NCBI RefSeq assembly: GCF_001447785.1
Contig: NW_015165830.1
Coordinates: 2,434,644 to 2,498,643, forward strand
DNA from: Gekko japonicus
Taxonomy: Eukaryota
Reading direction: 5' to 3'
Length of the DNA: 64,000 bases
The position numbers are program-made. This document shows, piece after piece, positions 39,001-42,000 of this stretch (the stretch's first letter is position 1; each line of letters opens with the position of its first letter).

Positions 39001-42000
39001 CTGGTGCTGGAGCAGGTATGCCTGGCCAGAGAGGAGCTAAGTCAAATCCCCCTGGAATACAGGAACTTGTCCAAGGTATTCAAGGAGGGGGAGGGGGACA
39101 AACTCCCCCCTCATAGGAACACTGACTGTGCTATTAAGATCTTGCCTGGCCACAAAATTCCCAAGGGGAAGCTGTATTCTATGAGCCCAGCCAGAAAGGA
39201 AAAGCTGTGAAAGTTCATTGATAAGAATTTGGCCCAGAGGTTCATCTGACTGACGGCCTCACCATTTGCCGCCCTTGTACTATTCCGCAAGGAGGAAGGG
39301 GGGTTGAGACTGTGTACCAACTACTGGGGTCTGAATGCTGTGTCAATGTCCAATGCCTACCCCCTCCCATTGATAAAAGATTTGTTGGCGGAGACCGCTC
39401 AGAGCTGCATCTTCACTGAGCCCGCTTTGCGGGGAGGGCGGGGTATAAATTTGATAATAAATAAATAAGTTAGATTTGAGGGATGCCCATATCCCACCCT
39501 GAGCCTGCTCTGGGATATAAATTAAATAAATAAATACCTTTGAGTACGCAGCCAGGAGCGGGACAAACATAAAACTGCTTTCAATACCCTGCTTGGACCA
39601 TTCGAATACCTGGTAATGCCATTTGGGCTAGCAGGGGCCTCTGGAGTGTTCATGAACTTGATTAATAAAGTGTTACATAAATAGTTGTTCAAGGGGGTCC
39701 TGGTTTATCTGGATATTTTGATTTATATGAAATACAAGGACTCACACACGCAGGTGGTCAGAGAAGTACTGAAAGCCCTCTATCAGAACTGGTTGTTTGT
39801 AAAGTTGTTCAAGTGTGAGTTCCATAAAGAAGAGTTGGACTTCCTGGAGTACCGAATCTCTGGGAAAGGACTGAGCATGGACCCCCACAAAAGCAAAGAT
39901 GTATTAGGGTGGGGCCCCCCTCAGACGAGGAGACAATTACATGCATTCCTCAGGTTCGCCAATTTCCACTGCCCCTTCATCCCAAATTTTGCCCAGGTAG
40001 CCCTACCCCTCACAGACTTGTTGAAAACAAAAGGGAAGGGGTTGGAGTCTAAAAAATCATGTTGTAAAGTTACAGTGGACCCCGGAGCAGTGTTCCCTCT
40101 GACCTGAGTTAGTGTGAGCTAGCTCACAGTTTTTTAGCCTCCAGCTCACTCATTTTGTCTTAGCTTAGGAAGGATGCCTCCAGAGCAAACTAATTCATGC
40201 AGTAGCCAAATCACTAGCTCACAACTTTAAATGCCAGTAGCTCACAAAGTAGAATTTGTGCTCACAAGATTCCACAGTTTAGAGGGAGCATTGCCCCAGA
40301 GCAGGGGTTATTTTGTAGAAAAAGAGCTAAGGGAACTCATTAGCATAACTCATTAGCATATGCCACACCCCCTGACATCACCGGAAGTGTGTCATAAGGC
40401 CACACACCCCGCCCCCAACGGTCCCGGCCGCCGGCGCTGGCCTTGCAGCTCCACTGCCGAGCCCCATGAGGGGCCCGGCGGTGGACCTGCAAGGCCGGCA
40501 GGAGTGCAAGGAAGCCCCGCGAAGGCCCTCCCTGGACCCAGGCAGGCAGGGGTGGGGAGAGGCAGGGAGGAAGCAACTTACCCTCCCTCTTCTCTTGCCT
40601 CCTCCTGGCTGAATGAGGGCTGGAAGCGGGGCGGCTGGAAGCAGGGGGCAGGGCTTCGTCATGTGCCCCGCCCCCCCGTACCTCACCTGGGGGAACTGCG
40701 ATCCTCCGCGATCCCCCCCGAAATGACCTCTGGATCCAACCATTCCATACACGGAATGCAGAGTTTTCCTGTGTGCCTCTTTATCCCTGCAGCCCCTTCC
40801 AACCCCTGTGGACTGGAAGGCTGGAGTAAGGACAAGGAAGTGAAAACACTCTCTCTCTCCTCTCGCGTAGCTCCACTGGAGAAAGAGGTTGATTTCATCC
40901 CCTTGTCCATCCTCACTCCAACCCAGCAACCCTCAGTGTGTTCCTCCACCTGGACCACACAGCCTTAGGAATGATCTTTCTGGGGGCCAGAAGGGGCTGC
41001 AGGAACACAGAGCATCACAGGGAAACTCAGATGTGGAGGGTTGCATGCATGGATGGCTGGACAGATCAAAATGCATGGAACCAACAAGAGTGAGGGGCCC
41101 GGCGGTGGACCTGCAAGGCCAGCGGGAATGCAAGGAAGCCCCGCGAAGGCCCTCCCTGGCCCCAGGCAGGCAGGGGTGGGGAGAGGCAGGGAGGAAGCAA
41201 CTTACCCTCCCTCTTCTCCTGCCTCCTCCTGGCTGAATGAGGGCCGGAAGCGGGGCGGCCTGAAGCAGGGGGCGGGGCTTCGTCATGTGCCCCCCCCCCG
41301 AAATGACCTCTGCCCCAGAGTACTAACAGGCTTTCAATGGATTAAAGGCTCTGTTCACCTCTGAACCAATCTTAGCCCACCCAGACAAAAATAAACCCTT
41401 TGTGGTGCAGATGGACACATCAGATGTGGCAAGGGGGGGGGGGGCGATACCGCAACAGGGGGGGGATGGGAAACTGCACCCCCTTGCCTATGTGTTGAGG
41501 AAATTCTCTGACACCAAGAGGAATTGGGTGGTTTGGGACAAAGAGGCCGCTGCCATTAAATTGGTCCTGACTATTTGGAGATATTGGTTGGAAGAGGCCT
41601 GGGTGCCATTTGAGGTCTGGACTGACCATAAAAATCTGGAGGCTTTATGCACCCCCAGCGCCTCAATGCTAAATCAGTTATGTTGGGCAGCATTTTTCTC
41701 AAAGTTTCAGTTTCCACTTATGTACCTTCCAGGGAAGTCTAATTTTCTTGCTGACACACTCCCGCGCCTCCCACAACATGCCAGTCAGAGGAAAGAAGTC
41801 ATTGACTCTACGTTCACCCCCACTCAAATGGGGGGGGGTGCTTACCCACCATTGGGCAAAGAAGGAGGGGGCCCTCAATCCTGAACCTTGGGTGGAAAAA
41901 TTTAAAGTGGCCTTCAGTGAAGCCGACAAAGAGGATGTGGAAAAGGAGGGCACTCTGCCACAAGGAGGGAATGGGTGCTGGTATTGCCAGCATATGTTGT

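What the first reader, a model, noticed from the sequence alone, without database searches (positions are those of the whole stretch)
40294..41320. Compound hAT element carrying a near-identical copy of DNA from 31 kb away (Pack-type transduplication)
Seen: between perfect 8-bp TSDs (ccccagag) lie a complete family-B unit (40302-40732), then 361 bp matching 9231-9590 with only two differences, then a second right end (41091-41312) joined at a TGA microhomology. The solo family member at 50043-50385 has no cargo. The two right ends differ from each other more than the cargo differs from its source, suggesting that two different family copies contributed. Inference: recent capture of host DNA by a vertebrate hAT element followed by a local hop, analogous to plant Pack-TIRs.
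Basis: partly seen in the sequence, partly recalled or inferred. Interest (0 to 1): 0.72.

Follow-up and report, generated by a model that had tools for sequence, protein, structure and literature searches.

The report
Gecko hAT element carrying nearby DNA
A small non-autonomous hAT transposon in a gecko genome holds a near-identical 361-bp copy of non-coding DNA from 31 kb away plus a second copy of its own right end, a real but already known kind of structure (an animal "Pack-TIR") that most likely arose by faulty break repair and not by a hop.

Summary
CCCCAGAG flanks 40302-41312. Inside lie a complete 431-bp family-B unit, 358-363 bp that match 9229-9590 at 99.45% (one mismatch, one 1-bp gap), and a 219-bp second right end. 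The junctions share TG and TGA.

New points:
- The window is from a gecko, not human. EME1 exons lie at 24.9-36.2 kb.
- The structure sits in the pol gene of a degraded gypsy-like element.
- The left 8-mer is also the right target duplication of a family-A hAT MITE (40088-40293).
- The second right end starts in the 4-nt loop of a strong hairpin inside the unit. The solo copy's 89-bp deletion ends at the same point.
- The two right ends differ more than the cargo differs from its source (P 0.0004 to 0.03).
- No family-B copy or excision footprint lies beside 9229-9590.

Best reading (0.5): a resident element broke in the hairpin loop and was repaired by template switching. The filler was another B copy's right part plus the 361 bp. 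This is the single-copy, cis-biased gap filling described for animal Pack-TIRs (Tan et al. 2021).

Genome copy number, orthologous loci and reads could not be checked.

The parts
40080..40087 (.). CCCCGGAG, left target-site duplication of the family-A MITE
   Evidence: differs from the two CCCCAGAG copies at one CpG position
40088..40293 (+). family-A non-autonomous hAT-like MITE (206 bp; starts CAGTGTTCCCTCTAAGC, ends GCTTAGAGGGAGCATTG)
   Evidence: 8 copies aligned. 8-bp duplications are perfect in 6 of 8, 7 of 8 bases in this copy, and unclear in 1. Pairwise identity 76-91%
40294..40301 (.). CCCCAGAG, right duplication of the family-A MITE and left duplication of the compound element
40302..40732 (+). 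unit 1: complete long-form family-B element (431 bp, 65% G+C). The CTCATTAGCAT motif occurs twice near its left end
40436..40499 (+). imperfect palindrome inside unit 1; predicted hairpin with the loop ATGA at 40466-40469
   Evidence: self inverted match, 81% over 64 nt. DNA fold of 40425-40510 gives -34.4 kcal/mol, z = -5.18, 0 of 200 shuffles as good
40733..41090 (+). cargo: copy of 9231-9587. With the shared TG and TGA the match runs 40731-41093 = 9229-9590
   Evidence: 99.449%, 1 mismatch, 1 gap
41091..41093 (+). TGA microhomology at the cargo/unit 2 junction. It equals 40467-40469 in the hairpin loop and 9588-9590 in the source
41094..41312 (+). unit 2: right 219 bp of a family-B element. 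It starts at the 3' edge of the hairpin loop and lacks the 37 bp that correspond to 40676-40712
41313..41320 (.). CCCCAGAG, right target-site duplication
9229..9590 (+). presumed parental copy of the cargo. It is non-coding, lies about 1.4 kb beyond the stop of an MRPL27-like last exon (minus strand, stop near 11022), has no family-B sequence beside it and no duplicated 8-mer
50043..50385 (-). solo short-form family-B element (343 bp) with CTGGTTAT duplications. Its 89-bp internal deletion ends at the same hairpin-loop position
38572..42916 (+). host of the insertion: degraded Ty3/gypsy-like pol. Protease-like 38572-39210, RT end 39685-40107, RNase H 41327-41884, integrase 41673-42916. The frame holds stops and shifts
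   Evidence: Pfam; the two sides of the insertion are adjacent parts of one pol frame
2740..3126 (-). older relative of family B. Its left end is about 81-84% identical to 40302-40381. The CTCATTAGCAT motif is present at both ends, in opposite orientation. No duplication is recognisable

Best explanation
A family-B hAT MITE had inserted into the 8-mer CCCCAGAG next to an older family-A MITE, inside a dead gypsy-like pol gene. That insertion made the duplication seen today. Much later the resident element broke in or near the loop of its internal hairpin (40466-40469).

The repair copied DNA from elsewhere instead of restoring the element:
1. The left broken end used another family-B copy as a homologous template.
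2. It copied that copy's right part to its last base, giving the right portion of unit 1.
3. It went on into 361 bp identical to 9229-9590. Either that other copy lay beside a copy or allele of this sequence, or a further switch took place at a TG.
4. It was joined back to the resident right half (unit 2) at a TGA microhomology.

The result is a single-copy Pack-TIR made in place, with no movement of the compound.

Shown: the anatomy, the junctions, the hairpin, the divergence asymmetry and the bare source. Inferred: the order of events, the break position as the cause, the second B template, and that the compound never moved.
For: - Everything between the two 8-mers is inserted. The flanks are adjacent parts of one pol frame.
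- The inner junction lies in the 4-nt loop of a strong predicted hairpin (z = -5.18, 0 of 200 shuffles as good). The solo copy's 89-bp deletion has its right breakpoint at the same base. That makes it a recurrent break or stall point.
- Microhomology of 2 and 3 bp is present at the two junctions. The chance values are P(>=2) = 0.156, P(>=3) = 0.051, joint 0.008.
- The right ends differ by 10 of 219 columns plus a 37-bp indel. The cargo differs from its source by 1 substitution and 1 indel in 361 (P = 0.0004 to 0.03). Unit 1 has 8 private changes, unit 2 has 2 and the solo copy has 9. The two right ends therefore did not arise from one element at the time of the capture.
- No B element, fragment or 8-mer footprint lies at 9229-9590.
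- Family copies differ by 5-8% while the cargo differs by 0.55%. The capture is much younger than the family's spread.
- Published base rate (Tan et al. 2021, PMC8277862, sections 7-8): of 281 unique animal Pack-TIRs, 59.8% are intrachromosomal and 56.9% lie within 15 kb of the parent. 67.6% have microhomology, with a median of 2 bp. Only 4 are multicopy. 91 of 97 primate cases have the plain element at the orthologous site in outgroups.
Against: - Unit 1 ends at the exact last base of its inverted repeat before the cargo begins. For a plain template switch that is a coincidence. It needs either a B copy sitting next to a copy of the cargo sequence, which this window does not show, or a transposase-cut end, which needs activity at a late date.
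- The distance of 31 kb is beyond the <15 kb class that holds most published cases.
- The hairpin-break idea rests on two coinciding breakpoints and a fold prediction only.
- With just three right ends, 'private' changes cannot be told from subfamily differences.
- The evidence that the long form is ancestral is weak. The local alignment to the older relative scores 20, and 14 of 300 shuffles do as well.
- No orthologous locus, second haplotype or read data could be examined.
Confidence: 0.5

Rival explanations
1. Capture first, hop second (the reader's reading; equivalent to a maize Ac/fAc macrotransposon, a composite insertion, or the FoSTeST model). A complete B element and a 5'-truncated one came to flank the 361 bp at or near 9229-9590. 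Transposase then used the outer left and right ends and moved the whole composite 31 kb into CCCCAGAG.
For: - Perfect 8-bp duplication with intact outer ends.
- The unit 1/cargo junction falls exactly at the element's last base, as at a native insertion site.
- Two unlike right ends, as expected of two separate elements.
- One inner junction with 3-bp microhomology. This matches maize composite insertions, in which an element plus its flank is joined to a fractured element plus its flank at 3-4 bp, with 8-bp duplications (PMC4270019, passages; macrotransposons in PMC9910405, passages).
- hAT elements tend to move locally (recalled, from no call).
Against: - No B element, truncated element or footprint is at 9229-9590, and the 361 bp is still there with unbroken flanks. 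The donor would have to be another haplotype or have been restored from one.
- It needs about four prior events.
- It needs family-B transposase activity at a date when the copies already differed by 5-8%.
- No hAT transposase was found among the 77 reading frames scanned.
- Only one compound copy is visible.
- Multicopy, transposed Pack-TIRs are 4 of 281 in Tan et al..
Confidence: 0.25
2. One element only. During replication the new strand ran to the end of the resident element and jumped back 31.5 kb at TG. It copied 361 bp, returned at TGA to the hairpin loop of the same element, and copied its right half a second time (FoSTeS/MMBIR). Unit 2 would then be a re-copy of unit 1.
For: - It gives exactly the observed order and orientation, with both microhomologies.
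- It needs no transposase and no unseen element.
- The source stays bare, as seen.
- The hairpin offers a re-entry or stall point.
- Template switching is the published route for animal Pack-TIRs.
Against: - Unit 1's right half and unit 2 should then be as alike as cargo and source. They differ by 10 of 219 columns plus 37 bp, against 1 substitution and 1 indel in 361 (P = 0.0004; 0.0005 to 0.03 after CpG and GC weighting).
- 8 of the 10 differences are private to unit 1.
- The first switch falling exactly at the last base of the element is unexplained without a nick there.
Confidence: 0.12
3. 9229-9590 is not the parent. The 361 bp belongs to a low- or multi-copy repeat whose true donor lies elsewhere, possibly next to a family-B element. 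Alternatively 9229-9590 is itself filler copied from the compound.
For: - Direction cannot be read from two copies.
- Both homology ends are set by the compound's junctions.
- A donor next to a B element elsewhere would explain the exact end-to-cargo junction.
Against: - Only two copies exist in 64 kb.
- No repeat, inverted-repeat ends or duplication bound 9229-9590.
- 0 of 24 reading frames around it match a Pfam family above its cut-off.
- A search of the 78-residue cargo frame found 0 proteins, among proteins of 111-356 residues only (weak evidence, since this is non-coding DNA).
- 99.45% identity at 31 kb on one contig points to a direct link.
- The reverse direction needs two captures.
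Confidence: 0.08
4. Assembly artefact: reads from 9229-9590 were joined wrongly into a family-B repeat.
For: The window has a 13-N gap at 6614-6626, so the assembly is not gap-free. Repeats invite mis-joins.
Against: - The cargo differs from the source at two positions.
- Both junctions are clean microhomology joins.
- The whole structure is framed by a perfect duplication within one continuous pol frame.
- The two right ends are 95% alike and not collapsed.
Confidence: 0.05

Closest known systems
Animal Pack-TIRs, especially hAT ones such as Pack-hAT-N8_XT of the western clawed frog (Tan et al. 2021, PMC8277862; abstract, sections 7 and 8, and passages read)
   Same: - A short non-autonomous TIR element with a target duplication.
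- Inside it, non-TE DNA whose near-identical parent lies on the same chromosome.
- Microhomology at both breakpoints.
- As far as can be seen, a single copy.
- An inner breakpoint at an internal fragile point.
   Different: - Published cases usually replace a small gap (median 4.6% of the element). Here nothing is lost. A complete unit is followed by the cargo and then 219 bp of a second, 5%-different right end.
- One junction is at the very last base of the element.
- The distance is 31 kb, beyond the usual <15 kb.
- The cargo is non-genic.
- The paper's main text does not mention lizards (0 occurrences). Its species list is in supplements that were closed.
Maize Ac/fAc macrotransposons and composite insertions (PMC4270019 and PMC9910405, passages read; Huang and Dooner 2008 is cited there and was not read)
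   Same: - hAT ends.
- A complete element plus adjoining host DNA, joined at 3-4 bp microhomology to a terminal fragment of a second element.
- 8-bp duplication around the whole.
   Different: - The maize structures are kilobases long and their donor elements are seen next to the copied DNA. Here the presumed donor site is bare.
- Transposase activity is unproven here.
- The second piece holds no host flank at all.
Plant Pack-MULE / Pack-TYPE elements (named in Tan et al.; details recalled)
   Same: TIR element ends enclose captured host DNA.
   Different: Plant cases usually carry gene fragments and are often multicopy. The superfamily differs. Here the cargo is non-coding and a single copy is seen.
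Internally deleted Ds-type derivatives and filler DNA from abortive gap repair (recalled: Rubin and Levy 1997; Yan et al. 1999; not read. PMC3814204 on MITE birth by microhomology was seen in a search listing only)
   Same: Breakpoints inside a hAT element with short homologies. The solo copy's 89-bp deletion looks like such a derivative.
   Different: Here the element's sequence is duplicated and not lost, and the filler is long and traceable.

Membership tests
hAT superfamily, non-autonomous element (family B) | 8-bp target-site duplication | tested here: met
   2 of 2 family-B insertions have perfect 8-bp duplications: CCCCAGAG and CTGGTTAT.
hAT superfamily, non-autonomous element (family B) | short terminal inverted repeats that begin CAG / (C/T)A(G/A)NG (consensus recalled) | tested here: met
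   The left end reads CAGGGGTTATTTTG. The reverse complement of the right end reads CAGAGGTCATTTCG. 11 of 14 positions match (read directly).
hAT superfamily, non-autonomous element (family B) | target preference nTnnnnAn (consensus recalled) | tested here: inconclusive
   Family B: A at position 7 in 2 of 2, T at position 2 in 1 of 2. Family A, the 7 clear sites: A at position 7 in 6 of 7, T at position 2 in 4 of 7.
hAT superfamily, non-autonomous element (family B) | a matching autonomous element that encodes a hAT transposase (DDE core, hAT dimerisation domain) | not testable with these tools
   None among the 77 reading frames scanned against Pfam. No vertebrate genome collection was on hand.
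Pack-TIR (as used by Tan et al. 2021) | ends of an identifiable TIR family at both sides, with a target duplication | tested here: met
Pack-TIR (as used by Tan et al. 2021) | internal non-TE sequence with an unambiguous parental copy elsewhere | tested here: inconclusive
   A parent candidate at 99.45% identity exists. It shows no repeat or TE signs in the window. Genome-wide copy number could not be checked.
Pack-TIR, transposed or multicopy class | two or more copies with the same inner junctions and different duplications | not testable with these tools
   One compound copy in 64 kb; no genome to search.
Pack-MULE-like gene transduplication | the cargo is a gene fragment | tested here: not met
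   Neither of the 2 long frames across the cargo matches a Pfam family, and 0 of the 24 frames around the source reach a Pfam cut-off. The cargo frame found 0 proteins among those of 111-356 residues. The source lies about 1.4 kb beyond the MRPL27-like stop and 15 kb from the EME1 start.
Ac/fAc-type macrotransposon or composite insertion | outer left and right ends in transposable orientation around host DNA, with an 8-bp duplication and one microhomology junction | tested here: met
Ac/fAc-type macrotransposon or composite insertion | the carried host DNA is the donor-site flank of the elements involved (elements seen next to the parent copy) | tested here: not met
   No family-B sequence lies within the flanks of 9229-9590. 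The nearest family-B-like sequence is the older relative at 2740-3126. No 8-mer footprint is present. Other haplotypes were not testable.

The most novel reading that the evidence does not exclude
The compound is a vertebrate counterpart of a maize Ac/fAc macrotransposon or composite insertion. Two family-B hAT elements next to the 9229-9590 sequence, on another haplotype, acted together through alternative transposition. They carried the 361 bp into an 8-mer already used by a family-A element. That would mean recent hAT transposase activity in this gecko lineage and a pronounced integration hot spot at MITE ends.
Probability: 0.2. Interest if true: 0.55.

Novelty: new member of a known kind. 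Interest (0 to 1): 0.3.

Why it matters
It is a clean and very young example (0.55% divergence) of a DNA transposon picking up nearby host DNA in a reptile. All junctions are intact, so the repair steps can still be read.

Two details are useful beyond the single case:
- The same hairpin-loop position is a breakpoint in two independent family copies. This suggests that internal palindromes decide where MITEs get deleted and where they capture DNA.
- The two unlike right ends show that a second family copy took part.

The cargo is non-coding and the phenomenon is documented in 55 animal species, so no new biology follows from it alone. A survey of this family across the genome could test the hairpin idea directly.

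Tried and rejected
- Simple nested insertion of unit 1. Rejected: its flanks are CCCCAGAG and GATCCAAC, which is no duplication.
- Cargo native to the site. Rejected: the pol frame is continuous across the two 8-mers.
- Coding or RNA cargo:
  - No Pfam family in the compound's two long frames.
  - No Pfam family above its cut-off in 24 frames at 7.3-11.4 kb. The sub-threshold matches were Aida_C2, v110, and Ribosomal_L27 at 19.9 bits against a cut-off of 20.5. The last one fits an MRPL27-like exon outside the source.
  - 0 Rfam matches in the whole window.
  - 0 protein hits for the 78-residue cargo frame among proteins of 111-356 residues.
- Inverted repeats or duplications bounding 9229-9590: none convincing.
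- Long form ancestral. The global alignment with the older relative did not align the extra segment. The local alignment scored 20, with 14 of 300 shuffles as good. This is weak evidence only.
- First protein search with 'longer' lengths: no hit because of the length range. Repeated with 'near'.
- Atlas look-up: not available.
- hAT transposase in the window: none found.
- Not tried, because the collections do not fit or are closed:
  - Genome contigs holds only bacteria and archaea.
  - Supplements of Tan et al. are closed. Their case list might include squamate or similar duplicated-end cases.
- No complex or structure prediction was relevant.
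Full report
**What is there.** The stretch was read directly and compared with the whole window by BLAST. CCCCAGAG lies at 40294-40301 and again at 41313-41320. Between the two copies:

- Unit 1, 40302-40732, is a complete 431-bp family-B element. Its left end starts CAGGGGT and its right end finishes ACCTCTG.
- 40731-41093 matches 9229-9590 at 99.449% over 363 columns, with one mismatch and one 1-bp gap.
- 41091-41312 is a second family-B right end. It is 95.2% identical to 40467-40675 (10 mismatches in 209) and lacks 37 bp between two C-runs.
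- The cargo shares TG with the end of unit 1 and TGA with the start of unit 2, so 358 bp (40733-41090) are unambiguous cargo.
- The solo copy at 50043-50385 (minus strand) has perfect CTGGTTAT duplications and no cargo.

The cargo pair is the only duplicate in the window above 97% identity.

**Where it sits and in what organism.** A long open frame at 24824-25852 is the large exon of EME1. Its best named matches are geckos: Heteronotia binoei 85%, Gekko kuhli 83%, Euleptes europaea 79% and Paroedura picta 78%. The contig is therefore from a gecko and not human.

The named Heteronotia protein was compared with the window by tblastn. This places eight EME1 coding pieces between 24911 and 36207 on the plus strand.

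A frame at 11022-11378 (minus strand) ends in a sequence that scores just under the Ribosomal_L27 cut-off (19.9 bits against 20.5). From memory it resembles the C-terminus of MRPL27. The source, 9229-9590, lies about 1.4 kb beyond that stop. No coding or RNA signal was found in it.

The compound itself lies in a degraded gypsy-like pol gene: RT end at 39685-40107, RNase H at 41327-41884, integrase at 41673-42916. The sequences just outside the two 8-mers are adjacent parts of one pol frame. That frame carries a stop codon there and a frameshift upstream. All of 40088-41312 is therefore inserted DNA.

The left 8-mer is also the right duplication of a 206-bp family-A MITE at 40088-40293. That family has 8 copies in the window. 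Their 8-bp duplications are perfect in 6 of 8, match at 7 of 8 bases in this copy (CCCCGGAG on the left, CCCCAGAG on the right), and are unclear in one.

The family-B integration thus used exactly the 8 bp that abut a family-A end. With 16 such ends in 64 kb, that has a chance of about 2.5e-4 per insertion if sites were random. The single difference is at a CpG, and family-A copies are more diverged than family-B copies (76-91% against 92-95%). The likely order is family A first and family B later. That order is an inference.

**The inner breakpoint.** Unit 1 contains an imperfect 64-nt palindrome at 40436-40499. As single-stranded DNA it folds into a hairpin of -34.4 kcal/mol (z = -5.18; 0 of 200 shuffles fold as well). 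The loop is ATGA at 40466-40469.

Unit 2 begins at the base after this loop, and the TGA microhomology is the loop itself. The solo copy is 89 bp shorter than unit 1, and the right edge of that gap falls at the same base. Two independent rearrangements therefore end in one 4-nt loop.

Whether the long form is ancestral is only weakly indicated. The local alignment of the extra segment to the older relative at 2740-3126 scores 20, and 14 of 300 shuffles reach that score.

**Ages.** In the 219 columns shared by the three right ends, unit 1 has 8 private changes, unit 2 has 2 and the solo copy has 9.

- Unit 1 against unit 2: 10 of 219, compared with 1 substitution in 361 for cargo against source. 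Fisher P = 0.0004.
- Without CpG transitions: 6 against 1, P = 0.013.
- With CpG sites weighted 1-20-fold and GC-rich sites 1-1.5-fold: P stays between 0.0005 and 0.03.

The two right ends were therefore already different when the cargo was copied. The alternative is that one of them was later converted by another copy.

**Mechanism.** The outer junctions (left end with the 8-mer, and unit 2's right end with the 8-mer) are native integration junctions, so the resident element owned unit 2. I propose that it broke at the hairpin and was repaired by copying:
1. first from another family-B copy, which is invisible on the left because the copies are homologous;
2. through that copy's last base;
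3. then through the 361 bp;
4. with closure at TGA.

This is the gap-filling route that Tan et al. 2021 infer for single-copy animal Pack-TIRs. Their figures are 370 cases in 100 genomes, 208 of them hAT. Of 281 unique cases, 56.9% lie within 15 kb of the parent and 67.6% show microhomology (median 2 bp). Only 4 are multicopy. 91 of 97 primate cases have the plain element at the orthologous site in outgroups (PMC8277862; abstract, sections 7 and 8, passages).

The microhomologies here are modest evidence on their own: chance P is 0.156 and 0.051, joint 0.008.

**What this reading does not explain well.** The cargo starts exactly after the last base of unit 1. That looks like a native insertion junction or a transposase-cut end. 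The first needs a family-B copy next to a copy or allele of the cargo sequence. None lies beside 9229-9590, and there is no footprint. The second needs late transposase activity.

That idea closely resembles maize Ac/fAc composite insertions and macrotransposons, where an element plus its flank is joined at 3-4 bp to a fractured element, with an 8-bp duplication (PMC4270019 and PMC9910405, passages). The hop needs several prior events and a donor that is now absent, and it belongs to the rarer published class.

A single-element replication jump (FoSTeS/MMBIR) gives the right order of parts but is contradicted by the divergence of the two right ends.

My weights are:

| Reading | Weight |
|---|---|
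| In-place repair with a second B template | 0.5 |
| Hop of a composite | 0.25 |
| Single-element jump | 0.12 |
| Source not the parent | 0.08 |
| Assembly artefact | 0.05 |

**Family placement.** Family B meets the hAT criteria that could be tested. It has 8-bp duplications in 2 of 2 insertions and ends that begin CAG. No transposase was found in 77 scanned frames, and no vertebrate genome could be searched. The structure meets the structural definition of a Pack-TIR. It is not a gene transduplication, because the cargo is non-coding.

**Novelty.** This is a new member of a known kind. The unusual details are the retained complete unit, the duplicated but unlike right end, the hairpin-loop breakpoint shared with a deletion derivative, and the reuse of a neighbouring MITE's 8-mer.

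**Left unchecked.**
- Genome-wide copy number of the cargo and of the compound.
- Orthologous and allelic states of both loci.
- Read support.
- Family-B subfamilies.
- The supplementary case lists of Tan et al., which were closed. The main text has 0 mentions of 'lizard'.
- The N run at 6614-6626 was left as it is.

Noticed in passing
window 5181-5389, 16614-16822, 17782-17990, 21380-21572, 22896-23088, 24250-24460, 40088-40293, 43438-43631: Family A is a MITE of about 206-210 bp with CAGTGTTCCCTCTAAGC ends and 8-bp duplications. There are 8 copies in 64 kb, 76-91% alike pairwise. Most targets end in GAC or GAG.
   Followed up: partly
window 40080-40087, 40294-40301, 41313-41320: Three copies of one 8-mer lie in a row: CCCCGGAG, CCCCAGAG, CCCCAGAG. 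Family B integrated into the very duplication made by family A, at a chance of about 2.5e-4 per insertion if sites were random. This suggests a shared target preference, or integration guided by an existing MITE end.
   Followed up: partly
window 40336-40359, 50328-50351, 3046-3092, 2805-2815: CTCATTAGCAT occurs 7 times against 0.06 expected, and only in family B and its older relative. In the relative it lies at both ends in opposite orientation; in family B it lies at the left end only. These are probably subterminal transposase-binding repeats. The reverse complement also resembles an octamer/TAATGARAT site (recalled).
   Followed up: partly
window 40381-40732: The right two-thirds of family B is G+C-rich (the whole unit is 65%). 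It has GC-box-like runs and a CCGGAAGTG (ETS-like, recalled) site, and the only match found to the older relative is a weak 25-nt local one at its start (40381-40405). It could itself be an earlier capture of promoter-like DNA.
   Followed up: no
window 24911-36207 (+) and 11022-11230 (-): EME1 coding exons lie here as eight tblastn pieces to the Heteronotia protein. The last exon of an MRPL27-like gene lies on the other strand. The two genes face away from each other at about 13.7 kb.
   Followed up: partly
window 36747-37227 and 44013-44762; 31904-32369: Direct repeats, 88% alike, bracket the gypsy-like pol and look like its LTRs. A 467-bp inverted copy (96.8% identical to 44385-44851) lies inside an EME1 intron.
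   Followed up: no
window 21696-21940, 48286-48531, 53612-53856: A further repeat family of about 245 bp, three copies 94-95.5% alike. Not characterised.
   Followed up: no
window 34186-34722 (+), 58391-58807 (-): Two further reverse-transcriptase fragments (RVT_1, E = 3.9e-23 and 1.3e-11). The first lies in an EME1 intron.
   Followed up: no
window 6614-6626: A run of 13 N. It was left untouched.
   Followed up: no
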